DNA of 43,914 bases from Mustelus asterias (Eukaryota), in assembly GCF_964213995.1 (NCBI RefSeq), contig NW_027590405.1:186001-229914 (forward strand), in the 5' to 3' direction. Each line of letters starts with the position of its first letter. Within the stretch, counting starts at the first letter, position 1. Below, piece after piece: positions 5,235-32,395 of the stretch. Below the pieces are notes generated by a model. The model was not told the DNA's origin. It was given only the letters and a program-made list of their open reading frames with translations, and did no database searches. A program made the translations under genes and the position numbers.

Positions 5235-5314
5235 TTCTCTTTCAGATCCACTGACAGCTTCTTCCAATGTTTGGCAATTCTCCTCCGCACGAGTACAGCT
5301 GCAAACTGACGGAT
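5235..5314 (-). CDS. IPO4: Importin-4 coding exon 3 (80 nt; IRQFAAVLVRRRIAKHWKKLSVDLKE plus 2 nt)
   Basis: Acceptor ctacttcag|ATC, donor GAGAA|gtacgt. Peptide matches the recalled IPO4 N-terminal segment IRQFAAVLTRRR and is in frame with exon 2. Confidence 0.93.
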
Positions 5315-9602: not shown

Positions 9603-9689
9603 CTGATGGTTCGGTGAGCTTGCGAGGATGTTGCAGAGTGCAGGGACCACTGACGGATCCTTAAACGCGTCCTTCAACTGAGCTGTGGC
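9603..9689 (-). CDS. IPO4: Importin-4 coding exon 2 (87 nt; ATAQLKDAFKDPSVVPALCNILASSPNHQ)
   Basis: Not in the ORF track; read manually. Acceptor cccacccgcag|GCC, donor CAG|gtaaac, phase 0-0. Matches recalled human IPO4 ATEQLQIVLRAPAALPALCDLLASAADPQ. Confidence 0.93.
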
Positions 9690-13689: not shown

Positions 13690-13755
13690 CTGCTGGATCA
13701 GGGCCGTGTCCGGCTCCAGCAAGTTGTTGAGGATCTTCTCCAGGAACTCCGCCAT
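13690..13755 (-). CDS. IPO4: Importin-4 coding exon 1 (MAEFLEKILNNLLEPDTALIQQ)
   Basis: Kozak context GCGATGG, donor CAG|gtgtgt, phase 0. Matches recalled IPO4 start LEQLLRELLLPDTERIRR and joins exons 2 and 3 in frame. Confidence 0.93.
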
Positions 13756-14430
13756 CGCCTCCCTCACACACACACACACTGTCACCGGCAACGTGCTTCC
13801 CCTCCGACTGCCTGCTGCAAGGCAGGAGGCGCCGCCCGAACCGGCTGAGTGGGAGCAACCGCCCACCAGGAGCGCCGCCCCGCGACTGGGAGGACTACGC
13901 GGCGGCCGCTACCTCAGGACCGCGCTGGCCCCGCCCACAATTATGAGGATGTCGCGCCAGCCCCGCCCCTAATGATGAGGTCAGCGCGGCCACGCCCCTC
14001 ATTATTTGGATGCCGCGCCTACCCCGCCCACAGTTGGTGGGAGGACCACGCCAGCCCCGCCCCCAATTGTTACGACAGGGCTGTTGGCCCCGCCCACAAT
14101 TCCTGAGGATTGCTTCAGCCCTGCCCCCAATTATGAGAAAGATCGCGCAGCCCCGCCCCCAGTTGGTGGGAGGACCGCGCCAGCCCCGCCCCCAGTGGCT
14201 GGGAGGACCGCGCCAGCCCCGCCCCCAGGGGCTGGGAGGAACGCGCCAGCCCCGCCCCCAGTGGCTGGGAGGACAACGCCGGCCCCGCCCCCAATTATGA
14301 GGATGTCGTGTCAGCCCTGCCCCCAATTCCTGTGAGAACTGCGCAGGCCCCGCCCATAATTATTGGGAGGCCCAAACTAGCCCCACCCCTAATTATTAGG
14401 ATTGTGCATCAGCCCCGCCCTCAATTAGTG
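13756..14430 (-). promoter_or_regulatory. CpG-rich IPO4 5' UTR/promoter with tandem GC boxes
   Basis: High CpG density; more than a dozen GCCCCGCCC (Sp/KLF) motifs in a degenerate about 36-bp repeat directly upstream of the ATG. Confidence 0.7.
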
Positions 14431-14434
14431 GGAG

Positions 14435-15842
14435 TTCGGAGACGGCGCCTCCTGTAGGTGGGAGGGGAAAACAGCGCCTCCTGTAGGTGGGAGGATGGAG
14501 ATGGCGCCTCCTGCAGGTGGGAGGGGAAAACAGCGCCTCCTGTAGGTGGGAGGACGGAGACAGCGCCTCCTGTAGGTGGGAGGATGGAGACGGCGCCTCC
14601 TGTAGGTGGGAGGGGAAAACAGCACCTCCTGTAGGTGGGAGGACGGAGACGGCGCCTCCTGTAGGTGGGAGGACGAAGATGGCGCCTCCTGTCGGTGGGA
14701 GGACTAAGAGGGTGCCTTCTGTAGGTGGGAGGACCGAGACGGCGCCTTCTGTAGGTGGGAGGACCGAGACGGCGCCTCCTGCAGGTGGGAAGACCGAGAC
14801 GGCGCCTCCTGTAGGTGGGAAGACCGAGACGGCGCCTCCTGTAGGTGGGAGGACCGAGACGGCGTCTCCTGTAGGTGGGAGGACGAAGATGGCGCCTCCT
14901 GTCGGTGGGAGGACTAAGAGGGTGCCTTCTGTAGGTGGGAGGACCGAGACGGCGCCTTCTGTAGGTGGGAGGACCGAGACGGCGCCTCCTGCAGGTGGGA
15001 GGACGAAGATGGCGCCTCCTGTCGGTGGGAGGACTAAGAGGGTGCCTTCTGTAGGTGGGAGGACCGAGACGGCGCCTTCTGTAGGTGGGAGGACCGAGAC
15101 AGCGCCTCCTGCAGGTGGGAAGACCGAGACGGCGCCTCCTGTAGGTGGGAGGACGGAGACGGCGCCTCCTGTAGGTGGGAGGACGGAGACGGCGCCTCCT
15201 GTAGGTGGGAGGACCAAGATGGCGCCTCCTGTCGGTGGGAGGACGGAGACGGCGCCTCCTGTAGGTGGGAGGACGAAGAGGGTGCCTTCTGTAGGTGGGA
15301 GGACCAAGACGGCGCCTTCTGTAGGTGGGAGGACCGAGACGGCGCCTCCTGTCGGTGGGAGGACCGAGACGGCGCCTCCTGCAGGTGGGAAGACCGAGAC
15401 GGCGCCTCCTGTAGGTGGGAGGACCGAGACGGCGCCTCCTGTAGGTGGGAGGACAGAGACGGCGCCTCCTGTAGGTGGGAGGACGGAGACGGCGCCTCCT
15501 GTAGGTGGGAGGACGGAGACAGTGCCTCCTGTAGGTGGGAGGACGGAGACGGCACCTCCTGTAGGTGGGAGGACGGAGACGGCGCCTCCTGTAGGTGGGA
15601 GGACGGAGACGGCGCCTCCTGTAGGTGGGAGGACGGAGACGGCGCCTCCTGTAGGTGGGAGGACGGAGACGGCGCCTCCTGTAGATTGGAGGACCGAGAC
15701 GGCGCCTCCTGTAGGTGGGAGGACGGAGACGGCGCCTCCTGTAGGTGGGAGGACGGAGACGGCGCCTCCTGTAGGTGGGAGGACGGAGACGGCGCCTCCT
15801 GTAGGTGGGAGGATGGAGACGGCACCTCCTGTAGGTGGGAGG
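14435..15842. repeat. 30-bp tandem minisatellite (GGAGGACGGAGACGGCGCCTCCTGTAGGTG, about 47 copies)
   Basis: Directly visible; the exact 30-bp period produces long spurious ORFs in several frames. Confidence 0.97.
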
Positions 15843-16328
15843 TCTCTTCACCTCCGTCCTAAATGGTCTACCCCGAATCCTCAGACTGTGACCCCCTGGT
15901 TCTGGACTCCCCCCACCATCGGGATCATCCTCCCTGCATCTACCCTGTCTCGTCCCGTTACCAAACCCCGCCCCCAATCCCCAAACCCCGCCCCCAATCC
16001 CCAAACCCCGCCCCCAATCCCCTGGTTCTGGACTCCCCCCACCATCGGGAACATCCTCCCTGCATCTACCCTGTCTAGCCCCGTTACCAAACCCCGCCCC
16101 CAATCCCCAAACCCCGCCCCCAATCCCCAAACCCCACCCCCAATCCCCAAACCCCGCCCCCAATCCCCAAACCCCACCCCCAATCCCCAAACCCCACCCC
16201 CAATCCCCAAACCCCGCCCCCAATCCCCTGGTTCTGGACTCCCCCCACCATCGGGAACATCCTCCCTGCATCTACCCTGTCCAGTCCTGTTAGAATTTGA
16301 TAAGTCTCTATGAGATTCCCCCCCTCAT
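15843..16328 (-). mobile_element. Older CR1 fragment (3' part) with internal duplications and a 20-bp G-rich repeat (ATTGGGGGCGGGGTTTGGGG on minus)
   Basis: LIETYQILTGLDRVDAGRMFPMVGG peptide repeated; continues on the other side of the intact LINE at 20287-20555. Confidence 0.8.
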
Positions 16329-16416
16329 AGAACATAGAACATTACAGCGCAGAACAGGCCCTTCGGCCCACGATGTTGCACCGACCAGTTAAAAAAAAAA
16401 ACTGTGACCCTCCAAC

Positions 16417-19236
16417 CTAAACCAATTTCTTTTCGTCCATGAACCTATCTACGGATCTCTTAAACGCCCCCAAACTAGGCGCATTTACTACTGATGCTGG
16501 CAGGGCATTCCAATCCCTCACCACCCTCTGGGTAAAGAACCTACCCCTGACATCGGTTCTATAACTACCCCCCCTCAATTTAAAGCCATGCCCCCTCGTG
16601 CTGGATTTCTCCATCAGAGGAAAAAGGCTATCACTATCCACCCTATCTAAACCTCTAATCATCTTATATGTTTCAATAAGATCCCCTCTTAGCCGCCGCC
16701 TTTCCAGCGAAAACAATCCCAAATCCCTCAGCCTCTCCTCATAGGATCTCCCCTCCATACCAGGCAACATCCTGGTAAACCTCCTCTGCACCCTCTCCAA
16801 AGCCTCCACATCCTTCCTGTAATGTGGGGACCAGAACTGCACACAGTACTCCAAGTGCGGCCGCACCAGAGTTGTGTACAGTTGCAACATAACGCTACGA
16901 CTCCTAAATTCAATCCCCCTACCAATAAACGCCAAGACACCATATGCCTTCTTAACAACCTTATCTACTTGATTCCCAACTTTCAGGGATCTATGCACAC
17001 ATACACCTAGATCCCTCTGCTCCTCCACACTATTCAAAGTCCTCCCGTTAGCCCTATACTCAACACATCTGTTATTCCTACCAAAGTGAATTACCTCACA
17101 CTTCTCCGCATTAAACTCCATCCGCCACCTCTCGGCCCAACTTTGCAACCTGTCTAAGTCTTCCTGCAGACTACGACACCCTTCCTCACTGTCTACCACA
17201 CCACCGACTTTGGTGTCATCAGCAAATTTGCTAATCCACCCAACTATACCCTCATCCAGATCATTAATAAATATTACAAACAGCAGTGGCCCCAAAACAG
17301 ATCCCTGAGGTACACCACTTGTAACCGCACTCCATGATGAATATTTACTATCAACCACCACCCTCTGTTTCCTATCCGCTAGCCAATTCCTGATCCAATT
17401 TCCTAGATCACCCCCAATCCCATACATCTGCATTTTCTGCAGAAGCCTACCATGGTGAACCTTATCAAACGCCTTACTAAAATCCATATATACCACGTCC
17501 ACTGCCTTGCCCCCATCCACCTCCTTGGTCACTTTCTCAAAAAACTCAATAAGGTTAGTAAGGCACGACCTACCTGCCACAAAACCATGCTGACTATCAC
17601 CTATCAATTCATTACTCTCCAAATAACTATAAATCCTATCCCTTATAATTTTTTCCAACATCTTGCCGACAACAGAAGTGAGACTCACCGGTCTATAATT
17701 CCCGGGGAAGTCTCTGTTCCCCTTCTTAAACAATGGGACAACATTCGCTAACCTCCAATCTTCTGGTACTATACCAGAGGCCAACGACGACCTGAAGATC
17801 AGAGCCAGAGGCTCTGCAATCACTTCTCTTGCCTCCCAGAGAATCCTTGGATAAATCCCATCCGGACCAGGGGATTTATCTATTTTCAGACCCTCCAGAA
17901 TATCCTGCACATCCTCCTTATCAACTGTAATACTGTCTATTCTACTCCCTTGCAACCCAGTGTCCTCCTCAGCTATATTCATGTCCCCTTGCGTGAACAC
18001 CGAAGAGAAATATTGGTTCAATGCTTCACCAATCTCCTCCGGTTCCACACATAACTTCCCTCTGCCATCTATAACTGGCCCTAAACTTGCCCTAACCAAC
18101 CTTCTGTTCTTGACATACCTATAGAACGCCTTAGGATTCTCTTTAACCCTATCCGCCAAAGTCTTCTCATGTCCCCTTTTAGCCCTTCTAAGCTCGCTCT
18201 TCAACTCCCTCTTAGCCAATCTAAAGCTTTCTAGTGCACTACCCGAGTGCTCACGTCTCATCCGAACATAAGCCTCCTTTTTCTTTTTAACCAACAAAGA
18301 AACTTTTTTGGTGCACCACGGTTCCCTAGCCCTACCAATTCCTCCTTGCCTGACAGGGACATACCTATCACAGACTCGCAGTAGCTGCTCCTTGAAAAAA
18401 CTCCACATGTCGGACGTTCCCAGTCCCTGTAATCTCCTAGTCCAACCTATGTTTCCTAATTCTCTCCTAATAGCCTCATAATTACCCTTCCCCCAGCTAA
18501 AACCACTGGCCCGAGGTTCATGCCTATCCCTTTCCATCACTAAGGTGAACGTAACCGAATTGTGGTCACTATCACCAAAATGCACACCAACGTCCAAGTC
18601 TAGCACCTGGTCTGGCTCATTTCCCAGCACCAGATCCAATATAGCCTCACCTCTAGTTGGCCTGTCTACATACTGAGTCAAAAAACCTTCCTGCACGCTT
18701 TGAACAAAAACTGACCCCTCTAACGAGCTAGAGCTATAACAATTCCAGTCAATATTAGTCAAGTTAAAATCCCCCATAACAATTGCCCTATTACTTTCAC
18801 TCCTAAGCAGGATTGACTCCGCAATCCTTTCCTCAACCTCTCTAGAACTTTTAGGAGGTCTATAAAAGACTCCCAACAGGGTGACCTCTCCTCTCCTATT
18901 TCTAATCTCCGCCCATACTACCTCAACAGATAAGTCCTCATCAAACCTCCTCTCTGACACTGTGATACAATCTCTGACCAATAATGCTACCCCTCCCCCT
19001 CTTCTACCTCCTTCCCTACTTCGACTAAAACATTTGAACCCCGGGACCTGCAGCATCCATTCCTGCCCCTGCTCTATCCATGTCTCTGAAATAGCCACAA
19101 CATCGAAGTCCCAGGTACTGATCCACGCTGCAAGTTCACCCACTTTATTGCGAATACTCCTGGCATTGAAGTATACACATTTCAAACCCTGCTCCACCCC
19201 ACCTCTGCAATGCCGTGCATTGCAGTCCCCATCCAT
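16417..19236 (-). CDS. LINE ORF2: APE endonuclease plus reverse transcriptase (939 aa)
   Basis: APE motifs YFNARS, ISETW, YRPP, MGDFN, LDLV, SDHN; RT motifs PGPDG, NYRPVSL, QHGF, DFSKAFD, GVPQGSVLGP, FADD; no stops or frameshifts. Confidence 0.95.
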   Translation of the reverse strand: MDGDCNARHCRGGVEQGLKCVYFNARSIRNKVGELAAWISTWDFDVVAISETWIEQGQEWMLQVPGFKCFSRSREGGRRGGGVALLVRDCITVSERRFDEDLSVEVVWAEIRNRRGEVTLLGVFYRPPKSSREVEERIAESILLRSESNRAIVMGDFNLTNIDWNCYSSSSLEGSVFVQSVQEGFLTQYVDRPTRGEAILDLVLGNEPDQVLDLDVGVHFGDSDHNSVTFTLVMERDRHEPRASGFSWGKGNYEAIRRELGNIGWTRRLQGLGTSDMWSFFKEQLLRVCDRYVPVRQGGIGRAREPWCTKKVSLLVKKKKEAYVRMRREHSGSALESFRLAKRELKSELRRAKRGHEKTLADRVKENPKAFYRYVKNRRLVRASLGPVIDGRGKLCVEPEEIGEALNQYFSSVFTQGDMNIAEEDTGLQGSRIDSITVDKEDVQDILEGLKIDKSPGPDGIYPRILWEAREVIAEPLALIFRSSLASGIVPEDWRLANVVPLFKKGNRDFPGNYRPVSLTSVVGKMLEKIIRDRIYSYLESNELIGDSQHGFVAGRSCLTNLIEFFEKVTKEVDGGKAVDVVYMDFSKAFDKVHHGRLLQKMQMYGIGGDLGNWIRNWLADRKQRVVVDSKYSSWSAVTSGVPQGSVLGPLLFVIFINDLDEGIVGWISKFADDTKVGGVVDSEEGCRSLQEDLDRLQSWAERWRMEFNAEKCEVIHFGRNNRCVEYRANGRTLNSVEEQRDLGVCVHRSLKVGNQVDKVVKKAYGVLAFIGRGIEFRSRSVMLQLYTTLVRPHLEYCVQFWSPHYRKDVEALERVQRRFTRMLPGMEGRSYEERLRDLGLFSLERRRLRGDLIETYKMIRGLDRVDSDSLFPLMEKSSTRGHGFKLRGGSYRTDVRGRFFTQRVVRDWNALPASVVNAPSLGAFKRSVDRFMDEKKLV

Positions 19237-19286
19237 GCATCCCTCACTTTCAGCCCCACTACTCAGGATCCCTCCCCCCCCCCGAA

Positions 19287-20216
19287 TCAGTTTAAACCTC
19301 CCTGCATGGCCTTAGCAAATTTACCCCCCAGGATATTGGTCCCCTTCTGATTAAGGTGTAGACCATCCTTCTCATAGAGGTCACACCTTCCCCAGTACGA
19401 GCCCCAATTGCTTAAGTACCTGAACCCCTCCCTCCTGCACCATCCCCTCAGCCATGAATTCAAACCTTCCCTCTCCCTATTCCTCTCTAAACTATCCCGT
19501 GGTACAGGCAAGAGTCCAGAGATAACCACTCTGTCAGTCTTGGCCTTTAGTTTCCACCCCAACTCCATAAATCCCTGCCTAATATCCCCTTCCCCTATCC
19601 TCCCTATGTCGTGTGTCCCCACATGTACAATAACTTGTGGTTTATCTCCCTCCCCCCTAAGAGTCCTGAATACCCTGTCAGACACATCCCGGACCCCAGC
19701 CCCTGGTAGGCAACACACCAACCCTGAGTCCCTACCTTTAGTTCCGACCCTCCTATCTGTCCCCTTAATTGTGGAGTCCCCAATCACAAGGCCCAGTCTT
19801 TTACAGCCCCTAACCACCTGAGCTTTCTCACTCGGCTCACCCCCAGAGATCTGCTCTCTATGCTCAGTTGATTCCTCCTCAACTGTAGCCTCCAGCACCG
19901 AAAACCTATTATGGAGGGGAACCGCCCCAGGGGATTGTCTTCCCGATTGCTTCTTACCCCTCCTCCTGGCATTGACCCAAGCCTCATTTCTAGGAGTTAC
20001 TATTTCTCTATAACTCCTATCAACTTCCACCTCCGCCTCCCGAATTATGCGGAGTTCCTCTACCTCCCCCTCCAGCTCCTTTACACGCTCCTCCAGAAGC
20101 TGCAATCTAATGCACTTCTTACAACTAAAATCTCCTGAAACACTACTGGATTTCCTCACCACATACATCCCACAGGAGATGCAGCATACTGCCTGAACTG
20201 CCATCCCTGAAGCCAT
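19287..20216 (-). CDS. LINE ORF1: N-terminal Cys finger/leucine zipper plus SGNH esterase domain
   Basis: First ATG at 20216 (MASGM); CxxC...CxxC, coiled coil LQLLEERVKELEGEVEEL, esterase blocks GDS, LPGA, VGTHD, DGLH; ends GLN*, typical of CR1 ORF1. Confidence 0.9.
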   Translation of the reverse strand: MASGMAVQAVCCISCGMYVVRKSSSVSGDFSCKKCIRLQLLEERVKELEGEVEELRIIREAEVEVDRSYREIVTPRNEAWVNARRRGKKQSGRQSPGAVPLHNRFSVLEATVEEESTEHREQISGGEPSEKAQVVRGCKRLGLVIGDSTIKGTDRRVGTKGRDSGLVCCLPGAGVRDVSDRVFRTLRGEGDKPQVIVHVGTHDIGRIGEGDIRQGFMELGWKLKAKTDRVVISGLLPVPRDSLERNREREGLNSWLRGWCRREGFRYLSNWGSYWGRCDLYEKDGLHLNQKGTNILGGKFAKAMQGGLN

Positions 20217-20751
20217 TACCAGCAAGAAAAAAAAGAAAACAAAAAAACTTCCCCACACTTCCCCAACTGTCACTCTCCACTGCAGTTCATTCGTCTGAAC
20301 TCCAGGGCAATCCTAACCTGGTCAATCTCTCCTCGTACATCAGTCCCGCCATCCCCGGGATCAGCCTGGGAAACCTTCGCTGCAACTCCCTCGAGAGCAA
20401 GAACATCCTTCCTCAGAAAAGGAGACCCAAACTGCACACAATACTCCAGGTGTGGCCTCACCAAGGCCCTGTATAATCGCAACAACACATCCCTGCTCCT
20501 GTACTCGAAACCTCTCGCAATGAAGGCCAACATACCATCTGCCTTCTTTACCGCCTGCTGCTAAAATTGCCCCTTCGTGTCCCCGGGATGCGTAGATTGG
20601 AGGGATTAGTGGGGTAAATGTGTGGGGTTACGGGGATAGGGCCTGGATGGGATTGTGATCGGTGCAGACTCGATGGGCCAAATGGCCTCCTTCTGCACTG
20701 TAGCGATTCTATGAAAAAAATTTTTGATGTGGCCTCAGCAAGGCCATGTAT

Positions 20752-21256
20752 AAACGCAGCAGTCACGGGCATTCAGCCTCTAATCTTCGGGTACGCGTTC
20801 TCCAAGGCGGCCTTCACGACACACGACAGCGCAGAGTCGCTGAGCAGAGACTGATAGCCAAGTTCCGCACACATGAGGACGGCCTAAACCGGGATGTTGG
20901 ATTTATGTCACATTATCAGTCACCCCCACAGCTTGCCTCCTGGACTTGCAGAACCTCACTGGCTGTCCTGTCTGGAGACAATCTCTGTAACCTGTACTGA
21001 ATGCTCCCTCCACCCACATTGTCTGTACCTTTAAGACCTGGTTGGCTGTAGGGATTCGCATTCTAATCAGTATTCTGTAACTTGATTTTGTGCCTCTGTG
21101 CCCTGTTTGGGAGCAGATTTCCACTCCATCTGACGAAGGAGCAGCGCTCCGAAAGCTAGTGGCATTTGCTACCAAATATACCTGTTGGACTTTAACCTGG
21201 TGTTGTTAAAACCCTTACTGTATTTACCCAAGTCCAACGCCAGCATCTCCACATCA
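20752..21256 (+). mobile_element. Penelope-like element 3' remnant inserted in a CR1 fragment
   Basis: Encodes GHSASNLRVRVLQGGLHDTRQRRVAEQRLIAKFRTHEDGLNRD (GIY-YIG C-terminus-like), followed by a terminal repeat with a hammerhead motif. Confidence 0.75.
21126..21162 (+). ncRNA. Minimal type I hammerhead ribozyme motif (Penelope-associated)
   Basis: CCAT-CTGACGA-A-GGAGC(AGC)GCTCC-GAAA-GCT-A-GTGG: both core boxes, 5-bp stem II, palindromic AGCT helix III, stem I CCAU/GUGG. Confidence 0.72.
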
Positions 21257-21339
21257 TAACTGCAGCAAGGCATCCTTACTCCTGTACTCAAATCCTCTTG
21301 CTATGAGTCCCAGGAAACTGGTACCACAGATAATAAAGG

Positions 21340-24300
21340 AAGCAAAAGGAATGTTGGCATTTATAGCGAAAGGAATAGAATATACAGGGAAGGAAGTATT
21401 GTTGCAACTATACAAGGCACTGGTGAGGCCGCACCTGGAGTACTGTGCACCGTTTTAGTCCCCATATCTGAGGGAAGATGTAGTGGCTTTGGAGGCAGTT
21501 CAGAGAAGGTTCACTTGATTGATTCCAGAGATGAGGGGTTTGTCGTGTGAAGAGAGATCGAACAATTTAGGCCTCTACTCTCTGGAATTTAGAAGAATGA
21601 GGGAAGATCAAATTGAGGTGTACAAGTTGATGAAAGGTCCTGGGACGAGAGGTCAGAGTCTTAGAATAAGGGGTGGCAAATTTAAAACAGAGCTGAGGAG
21701 AAACTGCTTCTCCCAAAGGGTTTGTAAATCTGTGGAATTCGCTACCCCAAAGTGCGGTGGATGCTGGGACAGAGAGTCGATTAAAGGAGGAGTTGGACTG
21801 ATTTTTAATTGGGAATGGGTTGAAGGATTGTGGGGAGAAGGCAGGAAAATGGGGATGAGAAAAATATCAGCCATGGTCGAAAGGCGGAGCGGAATCGATG
21901 GGCTGAATGGCCTAATTCTGCTCTTATATCTTACCTTAGACAAAATCGAGACAGGATTTACTCCCACTTGGAAATTCGTGGACGTATTAGCGAGAGGCAA
22001 CATGGTTTTATGAAGGGGAGGTCCTGTCTCACGAACTTGATCGGGTCTTTCGAGGAAGTGACGAAGATGATTGATGAGGGTAGGGCAGTGGATGTTGTCT
22101 ACATGGACTTCAGTAAGGCCTTTGACAAGGTCCCTCATGGCAGACTGGTGCAGAAGGTGAAGTCGCATGGGATCAGAGGTGAGCTGACAAGGTGGATACA
22201 AAACTGGCTCGGTCAAAGAAGACAGAGGGTAGCAGTGGAAGGGTGTGTTACTGAATGGAGGGCTGTGACAAGTGGCGTTCCTCAGAGATCAGTGCTGGGA
22301 CCTTTGCTGTTTGTAATATATATAAATGATTTGGAGGAAAATGTAACTGGATTGATCAGTAAGTTTGCAGACGACACAAAGGTTGGTGGGTTTGTGGATA
22401 GCGATGAGGACCATCAGAGGATACAGCAGGATATAGATCAGATGGAGACTTGGGCGGAGAGATGGCAGATGGAGTTTAATCCGGACAAATATGAGGCCTT
22501 TTGGAAGGTCTAATACAGATAGGAAACATACAGTAAATGGCAGAACGCTTGAGAGTATTGATAGGCAGAGGGATCTGGTACACAGGTCACTGAAAGTGGC
22601 AATGCAGGTGGAGAAGGTAGTCAAGAAGGCATACGGCATGCTTGCCTTCATCGGCCGGGGCATTGATTTAAAAATTGGCAAGTCATGTTGCAGCTTTATA
22701 GAACCTTAGTTCGGCCGCACTTGGAATATAGTGTTCAATTCTGGTCGCCACACTACCGGAAGGATGTGGAGGCTTTGGAGAGGGTACAGAAAAGATTTAC
22801 CAGGATGTTGCCTGGTATGGAGGGCATTAGCTATGAGGAGAGGTTGGAGAAACTTGGTTTGTTCTCACTGGAGCGACGGAGGTTGAGGGGCGACCTGATA
22901 GAAGTCTACAAGATTATGAGGGGCATGGACAGAGTGGATAGTCAGAAGCTTTTTCCCAGGGTGGAAGAGTCAATTACTATGGGGGCACAGGTTTAAGGTG
23001 TGAGGGGCAAGGTTTAAAGGAGATGTACGAGGCAAGTTTTTTACACAGAGGGTGGTGAGTGCCTGGAACTCGCTGCCGGGGGAGGGAGTGGAAGCGGATA
23101 CGATAGTGAGTTTTAAGGGGCGTCTTGACAAATACATGAATAGGATGGGAATAGAGGGATAACTAGAAAGAGTGCAGAAAAGATTTACTAGGATGCTACC
23201 GGGACTTGATGGATTGAGTTATAAGGAGAGACTGAATAGACTGGGACTTTTTTCTCTGGAGCGTAGGAGGCTGAGGGGTGATCTTATAGAGGTCTATAAA
23301 ATAATGAGGGGCACAGATCAGCTAGATAGTCAATATCTTTTCCCAAAGGTAGGGGAGTCTAAAACTAGAGGGCATAGGTTTAAGGTGAGAGGGGAGAGAT
23401 ACAGAAGCGTCCAGAGGGGCAATTCTTTCACACAGAGGGTGGTGAGTGTCTGGAACGAGCTGCCAGAGGCAGTAGTAGAGGCGGGTACAATTTTGTCTTT
23501 TAAAAAGCGTTTAGACAGTTACATGGGTACGATGGGTATAGAGGGATATGGGCCAAACGCGGGCAATTGGGACTAGCTTAGGGGTTTAAAGAAAAGGGCA
23601 GCATGGACAAGTTGGGCCGAAGGGCCTGTTTCCATGCTGTAAACCTCTGTGACTCTCTATGGTCCCCGGAAGGGTTGGGGGTTATAGTTGAGTCGGGCAG
23701 CATGGTCGGTGCAGGCTTGGAGGGCCGAAGGGCCTGTTCCTGTGCTGGAATGTTCTTTGTTTCTATGTTGGTCGGAATAACAGCAAAATGGACTATTATT
23801 TAAATGGTAAAAAATTGCAGCATGCTGCTGTGCAGAGGGACCTGGGTGTCCTTGTGCAGGAATCTCAAGGAGTTGGTTTGCAGGTGCAGCAGGGAATGAA
23901 GGCAGCAAATGGAATTGTGTCCTTCATTGCGAGAGGGATGGAGTTTAAAAACAGCGAGGTTATGTTGCAGCTGTATAAGGTGCTGGTGAGGCCACACCTG
24001 GAGTTACTGTGTACAGTTTTGGTCCCCTTACTTGAGAAAGGATATACTGGCACTGGAGGGGGTGCAGAGGAGATTCACTCGGTTGATTCCGGAGTTGAGA
24101 GGGTTGGCTTATGAGGAGAGACTGAGTAGACTGGGGCTATACTCACTGGAATTCAGAAGAATGAGGGGAGATCTTATAGAAACATATAAGATTATGAAGG
24201 GAATACATAAGATAGAAGCAGGGAAGTTGTTTCCACTGGCGGGTGAAACTAGAACTAGGGGGGCATGACCTCAAAATAAGGGGGAACAGATTTAGGACTG

Positions 24301-24555
24301 AGTTGAGGAGGAACTTCTTCACACAAAGGGTTGTGAATCTGTGGAATTCCCTGCCCAGTTGAGGCTCCCTCACTGAATGTTTTTAAGGCAAGGATAGATA
24401 GATTTTTGAACAGTGAAGGAATTAAGGGTTATGGTGAGCGGGCGGGTAAGTGGAGCTGAGTCCACGGAAAGATCAGCCATGATCTTATTGAATGGCGGAG
24501 CAGGCTCGAGGGACCAGGTGGCCCACTCCTGCTCCTTGTTCTTATGTTCTTATGA
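21340..24555 (+). mobile_element. Stack of at least four nested or adjacent CR1 3' fragments (about 21340-21930, 21935-23160, 23161-23655, 23770-24555)
   Basis: Repeated RT and C-terminal peptides (QHGFMKGRSCLTNL, FADDTK, RPHLEY, FTQRVV) with frameshifts and separate 3' tails. Confidence 0.9.
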
Positions 24556-24607
24556 ACTTATTAATGCCACAAAGACTTGACACGGAGTTAGAGAGGGGTT
24601 GAAAATG

Positions 24608-24613
24608 TTTATT
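24608..24613 (-). terminator. Polyadenylation signal AATAAA of the Ig-like gene
   Basis: TTTATT on plus strand, about 108 nt after the stop codon of the C exon. Confidence 0.75.
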
Positions 24614-24720
24614 GGAGATACCATACACCGGAAACAGGTTAGGCCGCACGCATGAGGAGGAGGTTGCCAGGGGGTCTCTGAGCCTCCCTGCCCCCCCCCC
24701 CCTCCCCTCCCCGTAGGCCC

Positions 24721-25064
24721 TCACCGGAGCTCGCAGCTTTCCCGCTCAATCGTTCTGACGATGGGCTCCTGGCTGGACTCGTGCTGGAGCTGGCAGGAGT
24801 AGCGGGCATGGCTGCCCCACTGGCCAGCGGGTAGAGTCAGGTAGGTGCTCCACCGATAGCTGCCGTCCTCGGCTCTTGTGGCTTCCGCCGCGCCGGCGCT
24901 CAGTCCGCCCGCCGCCTCCTCCTCGTCCAGGGTCCATCGGGCACGCACATGTCCCGGGTAGAATCCCTCCGCCAGGCAGCTGAGGGTGACGCTGGCTCCG
25001 GCCTGGGCCAACTGCTCGGCCGAGGGCGGGTACAGGTGGACGGAAGGTGCCGATATCTGGCGGC
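24721..25064 (-). CDS. Ig light-chain-like gene exon 3: C1-set constant domain with terminal Cys and stop
   Basis: Acceptor tctctcttcccacag|GC (phase 1). (S)RQISAPSVHLYPPSAEQL...VTLSCLAEGFYPGHVRARW...DGSYRWSTYLTLPAGQW..HARYSCQLQHES...RTIERESCELR*: canonical C1 motifs and a light-chain-type C-terminal Cys; no TM segment. Confidence 0.93.
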
Positions 25065-25172
25065 CTGTGGGAAGAGAGACAGAGAGAGGAGGCGTTATCC
25101 AACCTGATGCAAAAGCAACAAATGTGCCACCCCGGCCTTGGATTAAACAGTCCTCCCCTTAATTCACATCAT

Positions 25173-27499
25173 CCTCCCAGTGTGATACACAGACCGGGAC
25201 TGTACACGGAGCTCCCAGTGTGATACAGAGACCAGGACTGTACACGGTGCTCCCAGTGTGATACAGAGACCGGGATCTGTACACGGAGCTCCCAGTGAGA
25301 TACAGAGACCGGGGAACTGTACACGGAGCTCCCAGTGTGATACAGAGACCGGGATCTGTACACGGAGCTCCCAGTGTGATACACAGACCGGGACTGTACA
25401 CGGAGCTCCCAGTGTGATACAGAGACCAGGACTGTACACGGAGCTCCCAGTGTGATACAGAGACCGGGATCTGTACACGGAGCTCCCAGTGTGATACAGA
25501 GACCGGGATCTGTACACGGAGCTCCCAGTGTGATGCAGAGACCGGATCTGTACACGGAGCTCCCAGTGTGATACAGAGACCGGGATCTGTACACGGAGCT
25601 CCCAGTGTGACACAGAGACCGGGGAACTGTACACGGAGCTCCCAGTGTGATACGGAGACCGGAACTGTACACGGAGCTCCCAGTGTGATACGGAGACCGG
25701 AACTGTACACGGAGCTCCCAGTGTGATACGGAGACCGGGAACTGTACGCGGTGCTCCCAGTGTGATACGGAGACCGGGAACTGTACACGGAGCTCCCAGT
25801 GTGACACAGAGACCGGGATCTGTACACGGAGCTCCCAGTGTGACACAGAGACCGGGGAACTGTACACGGAGCTCCCAGTGTGATACGGAGACCGGAACTG
25901 TACACGGAGCTCCCAGTGTGATACGGAGACCGGAACTGTACACGGAGCTCCCAGTGTGATACGGAGACCGGGAACTGTACGCGGTGCTCCCAGTGTGATA
26001 CGGAGACCGGGAACTGTACACGGAGCTCCCAGTGTGATACAGAGACCGGAACTGTACACGGAGCTCCCAGTGTGATACGGAGACCGGAACTGTACACGGA
26101 GCTCCCAGTGTGATACAGAGACCAGAACTGTACACGGAGCTCCCAGTGTGATACGGAGACCGGGAACTGTACACGGAGCTCCCAGTGTGATACGGAGACC
26201 GGAACTGTACACGGAGCTCCCAGTGTGATACAGAGACCGGAACTGTACACGGAGCTCCCAGTGTGATACGGAGACCGGGAACTGTACACGGAGCTCCCAG
26301 TGTGATACGGAGACCGGGATCTGTACACGGAGCTCCCAGTGTGATACAGAGACCGGGATCTGTACACGGAGCTCCCAGTGTGACACAGAGACCGGGGAAC
26401 TGTACACGGAGCTCCCAGTGTGATACGGAGACCGGAACTGTACACGGAGCTCCCAGTGTGATACGGAGACCGGAACTGTACACGGAGCTCCCAGTGTGAT
26501 ACGGAGACCGGGAACTGTACGCGGTGCTCCCAGTGTGATACGGAGACCGGGAACTGTACACGGAGCTCCCAGTGTGATACAGAGACCGGAACTGTACACG
26601 GAGCTCCCAGTGTGATACGGAGACCGGAACTGTACACGGAGCTCCCAGTGTGATACAGAGACCGGAACTGTACACGGAGCTCCCAGTGTGATACGGAGAC
26701 CGGGAACTGTACACGGAGCTCCCAGTGTGATACAGAGACCAGAACTGTACACGGAGCTCCCAGTGTGATACGGAGACCGGGAACTGTACACGGAGCTCCC
26801 AGTGTGATACGGAGACCGGAACTGTACACGGAGCTCCCAGTGTGATACAGAGACCGGAACTGTACACGGAGCTCCCAGTGTGATACGGAGACCGGGAACT
26901 GTACACGGAGCTCCCAGTGTGATACGGAGACCGGGATCTGTACACGGAGCTCCCAGTGTGATACAGAGACCGGAACTGTACATGGAGCTCCAAGTATGAT
27001 ACGGAGACCGGAACTGTACACGGAGCTCCCAGTGAGATACGGAGACCGGGGAACTGTACACGGAGCTCCCAGTATGATACGGAGACCAGAACTGTACACG
27101 GAGCTCCCAGTGTGATACGGAGACCGGGGAACTGTACACGGAGCTCCCAGTGTGATACGGAGACCGGGAACTGTACGCGGTGCTCCCAGTGTGATACGGA
27201 GACCGGGATCTGTACACGGAGCTCCCAGTGTGATACGGAGACCGGGAACTGTACGCGGTGCTCCCAGTGTGATACGGAGACCGGGATCTGTACACGGAGC
27301 TCCCAGTGTGATACAGAGACCGGGATCTGTACACGGAGCTCCCAGTGTGATACGGAGACCGGGGAACTGTACACGGAGCTCCCAGTGTGATACAGAGACC
27401 AGAACTGAGCACGGTGCTCCCAGTGCGATACGGAGACCGGAACTGAGCACGGTGCTCCCAGTGCGATACGGAGACCGGAACTGAGCACGGTGCTCCCAG
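25173..27499. repeat. 38-40-bp tandem minisatellite (TGTACACGGAGCTCCCAGTGTGATAC(A/G)GAGACCGGGAAC, about 60 copies) in the J-C intron
   Basis: Directly visible; ends about 110 bp from the C-exon acceptor. Confidence 0.97.
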
Positions 27500-27754
27500 A
27501 GCCAATCTCCTGCGTCTCATCCTAAAACTATTCCCCCTCGTGACTGACCCCTCAACCAAGGGGAACAGTAACTCCCTATGCACCTGTCCAGACCCCTTAT
27601 AATCTTACATGCCTCCATGATGTCCCCCGCAGCCTTCTCTGCTCCAGAGAAAACAATCCCAGTCTATCTCGTGTCTCCTCAGACGCTCCATCCAAAGCAA
27701 CATCCTGGTGAACCTCCTCTGTACCCCCTCTAGTGCTATCATATCCTTCCCATG

Positions 27755-28910
27755 GACAGCACGGTAGCACAGTGGTTAGCACTGCTACCTCACAGCGCCA
27801 GGGACCCGGGTTCAATTCCGGCCTCGGGTCACTGTCTGTGCGGAGTCTGCACATTCTCCCCCGTGTCGGTGTGGGTTTCCTCCGGGTGCTCCGGTTTCTT
27901 CCCACAGTCCAAAAGATGTACTGGTGAGGAGGATTGGCCATGCTAAATTGCCCCTTAGTGTCCAAAGATGTGCGGGTTAGGTGGATTGGCCATTTAAATT
28001 GTCCCTCAGTGTCCAAAGATGTGCAGGTTCGGTAGATTGGCCATGCTAAATTGCCCCTCGGTGTCCAAAAGTGTGTAGGTTAGGTGGATTGGCCATGCTA
28101 AATTGCCCCTTAGTGTCCAAAGATGTGCGGGTTAGGTGGATTGGCCATGCTAAATTGCCCCTTAGTGTCCAAAGATGTGTAGGTTAGGTGGATTGGCCGT
28201 GCTAAATTGCCCCTTAGTGTCCAAAGATGCGCAGGTTAGGTGGATTGGCCATGTTAAATTGTCCCTTTGTGTCCAAAGATGTGCAGGTTGGGTGGATTGG
28301 CCATGCTAAATTGTCCCTTAGTGTCCAAAGATGTGTGGGTTAGGGGCTTGGCCATGCTAAATTGTCCCTTAGTGTCCAAAGATGTGTGGGTTAGGGGCTT
28401 GGCCATGCTAAATTGTCCCTTAGTGTCCAAAGATGTGTGGGTTAGGGGCTTGGCCATGCTAAATTGTCCCTTAGTGTCCAAAGATGTGTAGGTTAGGGCG
28501 GCACGGTAGCGCAGTGGTTCGCACTGCTGCTTCACAGCTCCAGGGACCAGGGTTCGATCCCCGGCTTGGGTCACTGTCTGTGTGGAGTTTGCACATTCTC
28601 CTCGTGTCTGCGTGGGTTTTCTCCGGGTGCTCCGGTTTCCTCCCACAGTCCAAAGATGTGCGGGTTAGGTTGATTGGCCATGCTAAAACTGCCCCTTAGT
28701 GTCCTGAGATGCGTAGGTTAGAGGGATTAGCGGGTAAATATGTGGGGGTAGGGCCTGGGTGGGATTGTGGTCGGTGCAGACTCGATGGGCCAAATGGTCT
28801 CTTTCTGCACTGTAGGGTTTCTATGATTCTATGAGGTTAGGTGGATTGGCCATGCTAAATTGTCCCTTAACATCCAAAGGTTAGTGGATTGGCCATGCTA
28901 AATTGTTATC
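27755..28910 (+). mobile_element. Two V-SINE copies with an internal 51-52-bp tandem expansion
   Basis: Heads at about 27757 and 28497; unit GGATTGGCCATGCTAAATTGCCCCTTAGTGTCCAAAGATGTGTAGGTTAGGT. Confidence 0.88.
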
Positions 28911-28991
28911 TCCAATTGCAACGGGATATTGATCAATTGGGCCAGTGGGCTGACGAATGGCAGATGCAGTTTAATTAAATAAATGCGATCG

Positions 28992-29668
28992 GTGTCCAGA
29001 TCACCAACAACCTGTCCTGGTCCCCCCCATGCCGACACTATAGTTAAGAAAGCCCCACCAACGCCTCTACTTTCTCAGAAGACTAAGGAAATTTGGGCAT
29101 GTCAGCTACAACTCTCACCAACTTTTACAGATGCCCCACAGAAAGCATTCTTTCTGGTTGTATCACAGCTTGGTCTGGGGCTCCTGCTCTGCCCAAGACC
29201 GCAAGGAACTACAAAAGGGTCGTGAATGTAACCCAATCCATCACGCAAACCAGCCTCCCATCCATTGGCTCTGTCTACACTTCCCGCTGCCTCGGGAAAA
29301 AGCAGCCGGCATCATTAAGGACCCCCCCCACCACACACCCCGGACATTCTCTCTTCCACCTTCTTCGGTCGGGGAAAAAGATACAAAAGTCTGAGGTCAC
29401 GTACCGACCGACTCAAGAACAGCTTCTTCCCTGCTGCTGCTGTCAGACTTTTGAATGGACCGACCTCGCATTAAGTTGATCTTTCTCTACACCCTAGCTA
29501 TGACTGTAACACTACATTCTGCACTCTCTCCTTTCCTTCTCTATGAACGGTATGCTTTGTCTGTACAGCGTGCAAGAAACAATACTTTTCACTGTATGTT
29601 AATACATGTGACAATAATAAATCAAATCAGAATCTAGCTATGACTGTAACACTACATTCCGCACTCTC
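28992..29668 (+). mobile_element. Rex1/Babar-like LINE 3' fragment
   Basis: MSATTLTNFYRCPTESILSGCITAW peptide; same family as 8700-9370. Confidence 0.75.
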
Positions 29669-29669
29669 T

Positions 29670-30605
29670 CATAGAACAAAGAAAATTACAGCACAGGAAC
29701 AGGCCCTTCGGCCCCTCCAAGCCTGCACCGACCATGCTGCCCCGACTGAACTAAAACCCCCTCCCCTTCCGGGGACCATATCCCTCTATTCCCATCCTAT
29801 TCATGTATTTGTCAAGACACCCCTTAAAACTCACTATCGTATCCACTTCCACTCCCTCCCCCGGCAGCGAGTTCCAGGCACCCACCACCCTCTGTGTAAA
29901 AAAACTTGCCTCGTACATCTCCTTTAAACCTTGCCCCTCGCACCTTAAACCTGTGCCCCCCTAGTAATTGACTCTTCCACCCTGGGGAAAAAGCTTCTGA
30001 CTATCCACTCTGTCCATGCCCCTCATAATCTTGTAGACTTCTATCAGGTCTCCCCTCAACCTCCGTCGTTCCAGTGAGAACAAACCAAGTTTCTCCAACC
30101 TCTCCTCATAGCTAATGCCCTCCATACCAGGCAACATCCTGGTAAATCTTTTCTGTACCCTCTCCAAAGCCTCCACATCCTTCTGGTAGTGTGGCGACCA
30201 GAATTGAACACTATATTCCAAGTGCAGCCTAACTAAGGTTCTATAAAGCTGCAACATGACTTGCCAATTTTTAAACTCAGTGCCCCGGCCGATGAAGGCA
30301 AGCATGCCGTATGCCTTCTTGACTACCTTCTCCACCTGCATTGCCACTTTCAGTGACCTGTGTACCTGTACACCCAGATCCCTCTGCCTATCAATACTCT
30401 TCAGGGTTCTGCCATTTACTGTATATTTCCTATCTGTATTAGACCTTCCAAAATGCATTACCTCACATTTGTCCGGATTAAACTCCATCTGCCATCTCTC
30501 CGCCCAAGTCTCCAACCGATCTATATCCTGCTGTATCCTCTGACGGTCCTCATCGCTATCCGCAAATCCACCAACCTTTGTGTCATCCGCAAACTTACTA
30601 ATCAA
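29670..30605 (-). mobile_element. CR1 LINE 3' fragment inserted in the Rex1-like tail repeats
   Basis: ORF 29961-30713 from LISKFADDTK to KLFP; Rex-type tail resumes at 30612-30855. Confidence 0.9.
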
Positions 30606-30898
30606 ACTTAATACTCTCCTTTCCTTCTCTATGAACGGTATGCTTTGTCTGTACAGCGCGCAAGAAACAATACTTTTCACTGTATCCCAATACATGTGAC
30701 AATAATAAATCAAATCAAAATCTAGCTACGACAGTAACACTACATTCTACACCCTCTCCTTTCTTTCTCTATGAACGGTATGCTTTGTATAGCACGCAAG
30801 AAACAATACTTTTCACTGTCTCCCAATACATGTGACAATAATAAATCAAATCAAATGGAAGAATGACTGTGAATGAGGGTAGATTTAAGGTCACTCAC

Positions 30899-31252
30899 TG
30901 GGTATAAGTAGGGAGATTCCATTGCCAAAGTAACACTGGTTGTTGTAATATACGGCACAGTAGTAAGAACCGGTGTCTGATTCAGCCATATTGTTGATGT
31001 TCAGGGTGTAGCTGTTGCTCTTGGTGTCACGGGCAGCCAGATAACGCTCGGTGATGCCCGACCCCCGCTGGATGTCTCCGCTTGCCCACAGGACCAGCAC
31101 CCACTCAGGCTGGCGCCCCTTCCGCAGCCGGTACCAGGAGCCACCGTAGTCTCCCACGTTGATGTTCTCCACCCGGCAAGACAAGGCGGCCGTCCCTCCC
31201 GCCGCCACCGAGGCTGACGGGGGCTGCTGGAGGACCGGGTTCGGGGTGGCAG
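30899..31252 (-). CDS. Ig light-chain-like gene exon 2: germline-fused V-J domain (354 nt, phase 1-1)
   Basis: Branch/acceptor gctaac-ttctctttctcttccttcctgtcttccag|CT; donor CCCA|gtgagt. (A)ATPNPVLQQPPSASVAAGGTAALSC...WY...YTLNI...DTGSYYC-AVYYNNQCY-FGNGISLLIP: V-set Cys/Trp/DxxxYYC and an FGxG G-strand in one exon. Confidence 0.94.
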
Positions 31253-31535
31253 CTGGAAGACAGGAAGGAAGAGAAAGAGAAGGTTAGCCCAATGGAATTA
31301 GAGCCGTAGAGAAACAGTCCATTCGGCCCACCTTGTCCACGCCGCCCTTTTTTTTAAATCCCTAAGCGAGTCGCAATTGCCCGCGTTTGGCCCGTATCCC
31401 TCTGTACCCGTCGTACCCATGTAACTGTCTAAACGCTTTTTAAAAGACAAAATTGTACCCGCCTCTACTACTACCTCTGGCCCTATTTATTCACTGCAGC
31501 TCAGCATTCAACACGGTTATTCCCACGAAACTCGC

Positions 31536-31875
31536 TGTCAGACTTTTGAATGGACTGACCCTGCATTAAGCTGATCTTTCTCTACATCCTACTTATGGCT
31601 GTAACACTACATTCTGCACCCTCTCCTTTCCTTCTCTATGAACGGTATGCTTTGTCTGTATAGCGCGCAAGAAACAATACTTTTCACTGTATCCCGATAC
31701 ATGTGACAATAATAAATCAAATCAAAATCTAGCTATGACTGTAACACTACATTCTGCACTCTCTCCTTTCCTTCTCTATGAATGGTATGCTTTGTCTGTA
31801 TAGTGCGCAAGAAACAATACTTTTCACTGTATGTTAACACACGTGACAATAATAAATCAAATCAAAATCAAACCG
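31536..31875 (+). mobile_element. Rex1/Babar-like 3' tail, tandemly duplicated, in the leader-V intron
   Basis: Two copies of CTGTAACACTACATTCTGCAC...GACAATAATAAATCAAATCAAA. Confidence 0.75.
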
Positions 31876-32132
31876 AACCAAGCTGAAAATTACCCATTTA
31901 TACCAACTCTCTATTCCGTGTTCATTAGCCAATCTTCTATCCATGCCAATATCTTACCCCCAACATCACGGGCAATAATTTTCTGCAGTTGCCCTTTGAC
32001 GTGGCATCTCATCAAATGCCTTTCAAGTGTGGGGCAGCAGACAAGACCTTCCCCCCACCACCCCAACCTCCGAGACGGGCGGCCAAATCCAAACCGTTCC
32101 CCCCCCCCAAAGGGTCGCGAACAGCCACCGAC

Positions 32133-32178
32133 CTGTCAGACACAAGAGGAAGATGATAGTCTGCCACACGACCTCCAT
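32133..32178 (-). CDS. Ig light-chain-like gene exon 1: leader peptide (MEVVWQTIIFLLCLT plus 1 nt)
   Basis: Not in the ORF track. Kozak AGGATGG, hydrophobic 15-mer, 46-nt coding exon with phase-1 donor ACAG|gtcggt: the classic Ig/TCR split-leader layout, in frame with the VJ exon. Confidence 0.88.
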
Positions 32179-32239
32179 CCTCGCTCGCTGCCTGTCGGGC
32201 GCTCGCTGGACGTGCTTCTTACCTGCCCGCCGACGCCTC

Positions 32240-32395
32240 GTCTTTATTCAGCCCCGGACTCTGATAGGCTGGGCTTGACAATGACACGGGCCTTTGCATC
32301 ATACCCAAGGGCAACCAATCAGCAGCTGCCAGGATGCAGATAGTCACGTCTCAGATGCTGATTGGCTGGGGAGACTTCGGAATGATGCGTGACGA
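32240..32395 (-). promoter_or_regulatory. Putative promoter of the Ig-like gene
   Basis: TATA-like AATAAA (32248-32243), octamer variant ATGCAAAG (32299-32292), E-boxes CAGCTG (32323-32328) and CAGATG (32352-32357), two CCAAT boxes, CRE half-site TGACG (32390-32394). Confidence 0.6.

What the first reader, a model, noticed from the sequence alone, without database searches (positions are those of the whole stretch)
13690..32178. Ig-like gene lies directly upstream of IPO4, a marker of the human 14q11-12 TCR alpha/delta neighbourhood
Seen: the VJ-C1 gene ends about 11 kb before the IPO4 start codon on the same strand, with only repeats between. Known: human IPO4 lies in the 14q11.2-q12 cluster (with PSME1/2, IRF9, REC8, TM9SF1) near TRA/TRD and PSMB5, a region argued to derive from an MHC-paralogous block. 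Inference: this linkage may preserve an ancestral association of light-chain-like, TCR and proto-MHC genes, in line with the primordial immune complex idea.
Basis: partly seen in the sequence, partly recalled or inferred. Interest (0 to 1): 0.7.

Follow-up and report, generated by a model that had tools for sequence, protein, structure and literature searches.

The report
Fixed shark light chain beside IPO4
This shark gene is an intact, spliced, apparently single-copy antibody light-chain-like gene inherited already joined, sitting next to IPO4 in a block of genes found on human chromosome 14; the broad link to the antibody/T-cell-receptor region is already published, but the gene forms its own conserved lineage and likely encodes an invariant light chain.

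Summary
Observation confirmed. A leader-VJ-C1 gene (minus strand, 32178-24721) ends 10,966 bases before the IPO4 start codon. There is no assembly gap between them, and only repeats and the IPO4 promoter. One contig from a public run is its spliced mRNA. The 369-kb scaffold also carries TTC5, SDR39U1 and a CCNB1IP1-like exon (human 14q11-12 genes), but no TCR or IgH gene was found on it. The wider linkage is known: shark IgH, TCR-alpha/delta, PSMB5 and some IgL are linked (PMC12227049), and the great-white orthologue is probably that paper's 'IgL sigma-prime'. Sigma-2 genes also lie at IgH in gar and bowfin. What the tools add: orthologues in seven sharks form a fully supported clade apart from classic sigma-2, with fixed CDR lengths. 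Sigma-2-like genes share a chromosome with IPO4 in coelacanth and lungfish (contig-length match), but in lungfish about 515 Mb apart. Chromosome-level synteny is old; direct adjacency is not shown outside sharks. IPO4 is not itself evidence for a proto-MHC. Likely role: an invariant light chain (inferred). The scan noted the same arrangement earlier in another shark genome (e1-9373472, unchecked).

The parts
32133..32193 (-). Exon 1: 5' UTR and split leader (ATG at 32178)
   Evidence: spliced contig of run X3 covers 32193-32133
30899..31252 (-). Exon 2: germline-joined VJ; IMGT CDR1/2/3 = 8/7/9 residues (hand count); FGxG J motif; two variant sites (31110 silent; 30934 Cys or Tyr in CDR3)
24590..25064 (-). 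Exon 3: C1 domain with near-terminal Cys, stop at 24721, 3' UTR, AATAAA at 24613; no transmembrane exon in the transcript contig
32292..32341 (-). Two one-mismatch octamer-like sites 99-148 bases upstream of the transcript contig's 5' end (weak)
   Evidence: octamer consensus recalled
13690..13755 (-). IPO4 (importin-4) coding exon 1
   Evidence: 95% to sawfish IPO4 residues 1-22
9603..9689 (-). IPO4 exon 2
5235..5314 (-). IPO4 exon 3; the gene continues about 181 kb beyond the window's start
14428..15842 (.). 30-bp minisatellite, 47 copies, between the genes
16417..20312 (-). Non-LTR retrotransposon with open ORF1 (esterase-like) and ORF2 (endonuclease + reverse transcriptase), between the genes
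25174..27499 (.). 38-bp minisatellite, 60 copies, in the VJ-C intron
43364..43563 (.). 200-N scaffold gap separating IPO4 and VJ-C1 from the PARP14-like, CCNB1IP1-like, TTC5 and SDR39U1 genes

Best explanation
The gene is an intact, spliced, germline-joined light-chain-like gene of the sigma-2 group, apparently single-copy, lying 11 kb upstream of IPO4 in a 14q11-12-like block, and it likely encodes an invariant antibody light chain within the shark antigen-receptor complex. Shown: exon structure, splicing, no close paralogue among the scored candidates, a separate shark-wide clade, 14q-type neighbours. Inferred: (1) the scaffold is a fragment of the chromosome with PSMB5, IgW, IgM and TCR-alpha/delta (about 0.85); (2) with no RSS and a fixed CDR3, every expressing cell makes the same V domain with no RAG step; (3) the leader sends it into the ER, where the C1 domain would pair with an IgH CH1 and link through its near-terminal Cys, giving an antibody with one fixed half, like the nurse-shark germline-joined sigma-2 chain that pairs with neonatal IgM1gj (about 0.55); (4) the place beside IPO4 is inherited neighbourhood, with no functional tie to importin-4.
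For: Spliced 888-nt contig joining all three exons at the predicted sites and ending 23 nt after AATAAA. Next-best C exon in the genome 41% (150 of 544 candidates scored); other V hits at most 43% (150 of 1130 scored). Orthologues at 55-68% in five other sharks, plus a C-only one. Clade support 100/98 (V), 100/98 (C), 100/99-100 (V+C). Terminal Cys in 7 of 7; CDR3 of 9 residues, YGG and WASG in 6 of 6. CDR1/CDR2 of 8/7 is the sigma-2 pattern (PMC5985310 Table S5). The C domain aligns with kappa and lambda C including the terminal Cys. The great-white orthologue XP_041031929.1 is on a 20.36-Mb contig; Table S1 of PMC12227049 has 'IgL sigmaprime' on chr27, 344 kb from psmb5, and accession spacing to that chromosome's UrIg2 fits. 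Coelacanth IPO4 and a sigma-2-like IgL are both on contigs of 172,207,807 bases. The lungfish sigma-2-like IgL is on an 882,488,833-base contig, matching the chromosome that carries IPO4, TTC5, SDR39U1, PSMB5 and REC8. Gar and bowfin sigma-2 lie at IgH.
Against: No protein or pairing data. Expression rests on one contig of depth 2 in one run of unrecorded library type and tissue. The Gln that usually bonds VL to VH (position 38, recalled) is present in 1 of 6 orthologues against 3 of 3 classic sigma-2. There is no perfect octamer within 1.5 kb of the V exon, whereas 2 of 2 lambda, the sigma and the C75 gene have one; kappa and classic sigma-2 also lacked it, so this is weak. No TCR, IgH or PSMB5 on the scaffold; PSMB5 and IgW are on another small scaffold. 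The great-white match is circumstantial. No ray or chimaera orthologue appeared (weak evidence). Deep branches of the sigma-2 group are unresolved.
Confidence: 0.6

Rival explanations
1. A UrIg-like non-rearranging secreted homodimer, made outside B cells and possibly never split by RAG: a two-domain VJ-C1 relic close to the antigen-receptor precursor (nearest to the first reader's idea).
For: Single copy; joined state and CDR lengths fixed across Galeomorphi and Squalomorphi; lies in the complex that holds UrIg2 (PMC12227049, whose Fig. 2 legend predicts a VJ-C1 precursor); VL-VH Gln poorly kept; imperfect octamer.
Against: Groups among IgL, not with UrIg-like or TM-bearing C domains, in the C tree (weak deep support). 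Has sigma-2 CDR lengths and an IgL-type terminal Cys. Its closest V match is the rearranging horn-shark sigma-2 (46%). Germ-line joining of L chains is common in cartilaginous fish (PMC5192425). A union with the TM-bearing VJ-C1 group was not rejected, though (AU p 0.36).
Confidence: 0.2
2. An ordinary dispersed germline-joined copy of the classic sigma-2 (type I/NS5) isotype that landed beside IPO4; the position means nothing.
For: Sigma-2 CDR pattern; labelled sigma-prime in Table S1 if it is the same gene; IgL miniclusters are scattered over at least six contigs of this genome.
Against: Only 34-44% C identity to classic sigma-2. Horn shark, whale shark and this genome each hold both kinds, on different contigs. 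One clade with classic sigma-2 is rejected only narrowly (AU p 0.042, LG+G4). The upstream macro-domain neighbour is shared with basking shark.
Confidence: 0.12
3. A surrogate-light-chain analogue: an invariant chain that tests newly made heavy chains in pre-B cells.
For: Invariant, single-copy and conserved; fish lack known surrogate chains (passages of PMC5192425, PMC9614664).
Against: No VpreB- or lambda5-like unique tails and no split into two chains; no stage-specific expression data.
Confidence: 0.06
4. The adjacency is a misassembly.
For: Unplaced 369-kb scaffold, repeat-rich interval; no laid record could span the 11 kb.
Against: No gap between the genes; the basking-shark model fuses the same upstream neighbour to the orthologue; chromosome-level synteny in other species.
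Confidence: 0.02

Closest known systems
IgL sigma-2 (sigma-cart, sigma-prime, type I, NS5) of cartilaginous fish
   Same: Leader-VJ-C1 with terminal Cys; CDR1/CDR2 of 8/7; best V match (46% to horn-shark WKK30312.1); some loci are germline-joined (PMC5192425).
   Different: Separate fully supported clade; C identity 34-44%; both kinds coexist in three species; apparently always single and joined; longer leader intron (880 nt).
'IgL sigmaprime' LOC121270612 in the great-white antigen-receptor complex (PMC12227049 Table S1)
   Same: Probably the orthologue: same NCBI name, compatible contig length and accession spacing, room for IPO4 before psmb5.
   Different: In the parts I read the paper only lists it; it does not discuss its joined state, separate lineage or IPO4 neighbour. 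Identity is not proven.
Germline-joined sigma-2 of gar, bowfin, coelacanth, turtles (PMC5985310, PMC8423624)
   Same: Joined VJ; at or near IgH / the 14q-like chromosome.
   Different: Turtle and caecilian genes form another clade. Only coelacanth XP_006009921 groups with this gene (64/45 and 88/88, not starred).
UrIg / UrIg2 (PMC12227049)
   Same: Non-rearranging single-exon VJ with split leader; UrIg2 lies in the same complex.
   Different: UrIg has 3 C domains and UrIg2 9-11 plus TM; this gene has one IgL-like C and no TM.
PRARP-like VJ-C1-TM genes (Fu 2019, seen only as cited; label recalled)
   Same: Non-rearranging VJ-C1.
   Different: No TM or cytoplasmic tail; separate clade (100/100 for that group).

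Membership tests
Ig light chain | Split leader, one VJ and one C1 domain, no TM | tested here: met
Ig light chain | Near-terminal Cys for the H-L disulfide | tested here: met
   7 of 7 orthologues; aligns with kappa terminal Cys
Ig light chain | Pairs with an Ig heavy chain in B cells | not testable with these tools
   needs protein or single-cell data; interface Gln in 1 of 6
Ig light chain | Octamer-driven promoter | tested here: inconclusive
   only one-mismatch sites; perfect site in 4 of 6 other IgL-type genes checked
IgL sigma-2, broad group | CDR1 = 8 and CDR2 = 7 residues | tested here: met
   hand count against Table S5 of PMC5985310
IgL sigma-2, broad group | Groups with sigma-2 in trees | tested here: inconclusive
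   17-row group at 84/95, open; union with lambda rejected (p 0.0009); union with sigma p 0.056
Classic shark sigma-2 (type I / NS5) | Same clade as horn-shark sigma-2 WKK30312.1 | tested here: not met
   separate starred clades; AU p 0.042 (borderline)
UrIg / UrIg2 | Three or more C1 domains | tested here: not met
   one C exon with stop and poly(A) signal
PRARP-like VJ-C1-TM | Transmembrane segment | tested here: not met
   stop right after the C domain in 6 of 6 full models
Elasmobranch antigen-receptor complex (huchr14 equivalent) | Physical linkage to PSMB5, IgH and TCR-alpha/delta | tested here: inconclusive
   not on this scaffold; indirect through the great-white, coelacanth and lungfish matches
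Elasmobranch antigen-receptor complex (huchr14 equivalent) | Other human 14q11-12 orthologues alongside | tested here: met
   IPO4, TTC5, SDR39U1; human map positions recalled; TTC5 and SDR39U1 lie beyond a 200-N gap
Never-split pre-RAG VJ gene | Diverged before rearranging IgL/TCR; no split orthologue anywhere | tested here: inconclusive
   deep branches unresolved, trees unrooted

The most novel reading that the evidence does not exclude
This is an unrecognised ancient light-chain lineage, separate from classic sigma-2, kept as one invariant VJ-C1 gene on the IgH/TCR-alpha-delta chromosome since the shark-coelacanth split (coelacanth XP_006009921 as orthologue). It is either the fixed chain that checks or partners early heavy chains in fish, which lack VpreB/lambda5, or a two-domain never-split relative of the gene RAG invaded.
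Probability: 0.13. Interest if true: 0.75.

Novelty: new variant of a known kind. Interest (0 to 1): 0.4.

Why it matters
The added value is narrower. The light-chain gene in the shark antigen-receptor complex seems not to be classic sigma-2 but a conserved, single, non-rearranging lineage, so 'sigma-2' likely covers several old paralogues. IPO4, TTC5 and SDR39U1 give single-copy anchors for ordering a region that is broken up in this assembly. An invariant light chain kept across shark superorders is a testable candidate for a fixed partner of early heavy chains.

Tried and rejected
TCR-alpha constant family PF09291: no match in the genome (0 of 17 candidates), so TCR-alpha C could not be placed. 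Rad21_Rec8_N: 4 matches, on C7 and C20, none on this scaffold, identity not checked. PA28 and EMP70 families: candidates for PSME1/2 and TM9SF1 fall on small scaffolds (C4789, C2410; C4775, C1384, C1171; assignment inferred), so nothing could be ordered. The IPO4 homologue search gave 4 cluster representatives of 25 candidates and no per-shark contigs, so adjacency in other sharks was not tested directly. Rfam on 11 sources (144 kb): no RNase P RNA, one weak U2 match. The CCNB1IP1-like exon had no informative Pfam hit and the Atlas was unavailable; its name is recalled. The V exon of the C2496 gene was not found in 3-51.8 kb. AlphaFold model was poor (pLDDT 64, pTM 0.49), so no fold search was run. 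Complex prediction was not run, because light chains pass by likeness to solved Fabs. Sequencing runs: no RNA holder listed; all four runs are one study and may be the assembly's source. Coelacanth XP_006009921 as orthologue: the window's VJ exon was its only V-region hit at E<=1e-12 among 150 scored of 1263, but its C domain prefers lambda and C2496, and V scores tie with classic sigma-2 (205 vs 197); left open. Ohta 2019 (PMC6761025), Saha 2014 (PMC4110200) and Flajnik 2023 (PMC10530332) were not held.
Full report
1. The observation. The window is G000:C373:186001-229914, on a 369,302-base scaffold of a 3.68-Gb genome. [quoted passage not shown] The gene has a leader exon (ATG 32178), one exon with V and J in frame (31252-30899) and a C1 exon (25064-24721) followed by AATAAA (Pfam). 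No RSS flanks it. IPO4 starts at 13755 on the same strand, 10,966 bases after the stop. It is importin-4 and is complete on the scaffold over about 195 kb. The interval is 92% repeated sequence, with minisatellites and an intact LINE, and has no gap.

2. The gene is transcribed. In run X3 one 888-nt contig (depth 2) consists of 32193-32133, 31252-30899 and 25064-24590, joined at the predicted splice sites. Its two V-exon differences from the assembly are also in runs X1 and X2, whose contigs run through the introns, so they are likely alleles; one changes the CDR3 Cys to Tyr. This is one contig from one study, tissue unknown.

3. Copy number and relatives. In the genome the next-best C exon is 41% identical (150 of 544 candidates scored), and other V hits are at most 43% (150 of 1130). 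The other light-chain loci are elsewhere: a joined lambda-type cluster on C13, kappa-type on C8, sigma-type on C26, a split classic sigma-2 on C23, and two divergent singles on C75 and C2496. The kappa and sigma labels are recalled; the C23 label rests on 69-70% identity to horn-shark sigma-2 WKK30312.1. Orthologues: great white, basking shark, horn shark, sevengill (5 of 1402 candidates including self), whale shark (6 of 7995) and a bamboo-shark C domain. Their genome-derived models include the J, whereas the model of the split C23 gene lacks it, so they are likely joined too; I did not see their DNA. V and C are equally conserved (mean pairwise 65% and 65%). All six have a 9-residue CDR3, YGG and WASG.

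4. Family. CDR1/CDR2 are 8/7, the sigma-2 pattern (PMC5985310 Table S5). Trees used 24 of the stored proteins (single VJ-C1 chains; I left out cluster mates or partial models P0044, P0053, P0078, P0090, P0113, P0139, P0144, P0148 and all multi-domain hits) plus genomic domains. The orthologues form a starred clade in V (33 rows), C (38 rows) and V+C (28 and 27 rows), apart from the starred classic sigma-2 clade. AU tests (LG+G4): with classic sigma-2 p 0.042, with lambda p 0.0009, with sigma p 0.056, with TM-bearing VJ-C1 genes p 0.36. The nearest outside row is coelacanth XP_006009921 (64/45; 88/88 with the mixture model and the long lizard row removed), which is not established. Horn shark, whale shark and this genome each have both kinds on different contigs.

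5. Neighbourhood. Scaffold order: IPO4, VJ-C1, 200-N gap, PARP14/15-like macro-domain gene, CCNB1IP1-like exon (name recalled), TTC5, SDR39U1, from exon prediction. TTC5, CCNB1IP1, SDR39U1 and IPO4 are human 14q11.2-q12 genes; PARP14 is not (both recalled). The basking-shark model fuses macro-domain exons to the orthologous V and C, and those parts map to the same two neighbouring genes here, which supports the join across the gap. PSMB5 with IgW is on another scaffold, C185, and IgM with TCR-like V on C71. The assembly cannot link them.

6. Other species. PMC12227049 (read: parts 1-4 of 8, section 19, Table S1 whole) shows IgM, IgW, IgNAR, TCR-alpha/delta, PSMB5, UrIg2 and 'some IgL' linked in four elasmobranchs. 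Great white has 'IgL sigmaprime' at chr27:5.94 Mb, 344 kb from psmb5; catshark has 'IgLsigma' 3.1 Mb from psmb5; none is listed for stingray or epaulette shark. The orthologue XP_041031929.1 lies on a 20.36-Mb contig (chr27 genes are listed to 17.1 Mb), 571 accessions after that chromosome's UrIg2 protein, while the LOC numbers differ by 502: probably the same gene. Coelacanth IPO4 and the sigma-2-like XP_006009926.3 are both on 172,207,807-base contigs; distance unknown. In lungfish (PMC10751288; read passages and supplement parts 86, 89, 90 of 98), one chromosome has SDR39U1 and TTC5 head to head as here, two 'IgL lambda' genes about 15 Mb on, PSMB5 at 164 Mb, and IPO4 with REC8 at 640-644 Mb among MHCpara-9 genes. 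Its last gene ends at 882,438,282, matching the 882,488,833-base contig of a lungfish chain that groups with coelacanth XP_006009926. Gar has two joined sigma-2 genes flanking IgH (PMC5985310, sections 28 and 30 and passages). Bowfin has sigma-2 inside the IgH V cluster, on the TCR-alpha/delta scaffold (PMC8423624, passage). So chromosome-level synteny is old, but the direct IPO4 adjacency is not kept in lungfish, and these bony-fish genes may be paralogues of this one.

7. How it likely works. With no RSS and a fixed CDR3 the product is invariant. Leader, IgL-like C1 and a terminal Cys point to a secreted chain that disulfide-bonds to a heavy chain, as reported for the nurse-shark joined sigma-2 with IgM1gj (PMC5192425, passage). 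Against: the VL-VH Gln is kept in 1 of 6 orthologues, and the promoter has only imperfect octamers, which leaves a UrIg-like homodimer open. Nothing suggests a functional tie to IPO4.

8. Novelty. The linkage is known. No held paper has IPO4, 'immunoglobulin light chain' and synteny together, and none of the 15 listed of 53 mentions IPO4. Searches for a separate joined sigma-2-like shark lineage returned only the papers above. Ohta 2019, Saha 2014, Flajnik 2023 and most subscription papers were not readable and may already name this gene; three supplement files of PMC5985310 were outside the search (one was read later). PMC9614664 was seen as passages only. An earlier unchecked note of this scan (e1-9373472) reports a broken copy upstream of IPO4 in another shark genome; I found it after reaching this reading and could not check it.

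9. Verdict. Real feature; known neighbourhood; a distinct conserved variant of the sigma-2 light-chain group. Interest 0.4.

Noticed in passing
G000:C2496:18031-18339 (L034:5032-5340): Another apparently single divergent IgL-like C exon; it is the best genomic C hit of turtle sigma-2 (48%). No V found on the scaffold.
   Followed up: partly
G000:C75:17329620-17336400 (L037, L078): Divergent light-chain-like gene, orthologue of bamboo-shark XP_072406873.1 (joined VJ-C1, C clade 100/100). The V exon here looks frameshifted. Possibly a further sigma-2-like lineage.
   Followed up: partly
window 16417-20312 (-): LINE with both ORFs open (341-aa esterase-like ORF1; 964-aa endonuclease/RT ORF2), so probably a young insertion.
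   Followed up: partly
G000:C373:233,800-275,700 (L020-L024): PARP14/15-like macro-domain gene for which no catalytic-domain exon was predicted before the Ig gene; a basking-shark model fuses macro exons to the VJ-C1 orthologue (read-through or model error).
   Followed up: partly
window 30934: Likely allelic Cys/Tyr in CDR3; the assembled allele has an unpaired Cys absent from all five orthologues.
   Followed up: partly
G000:C15:1.55-2.55 Mb (L092): Cluster of sigma-2-like V exons, at least one with a joined J, and a 1139-aa open frame at 1,553,195; probably the multi-V receptor family noted elsewhere by the scan.
   Followed up: no
G000:C1:175912756-175913091 (L094): Lone joined VJ exon on a long branch.
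   Followed up: no
G000:C9:99366854-99367318: Long single-exon proteasome beta match, possibly PSMB11 or a retrocopy, away from PSMB5.
   Followed up: no
G000:C23:1595912-1598310 (L040): Classic sigma-2 locus with a degenerate RSS and a C exon that reads past the usual stop; may be decaying.
   Followed up: partly
L022:4018-4138 (-): Weak U2 snRNA-like match inside the PARP14-like gene.
   Followed up: no
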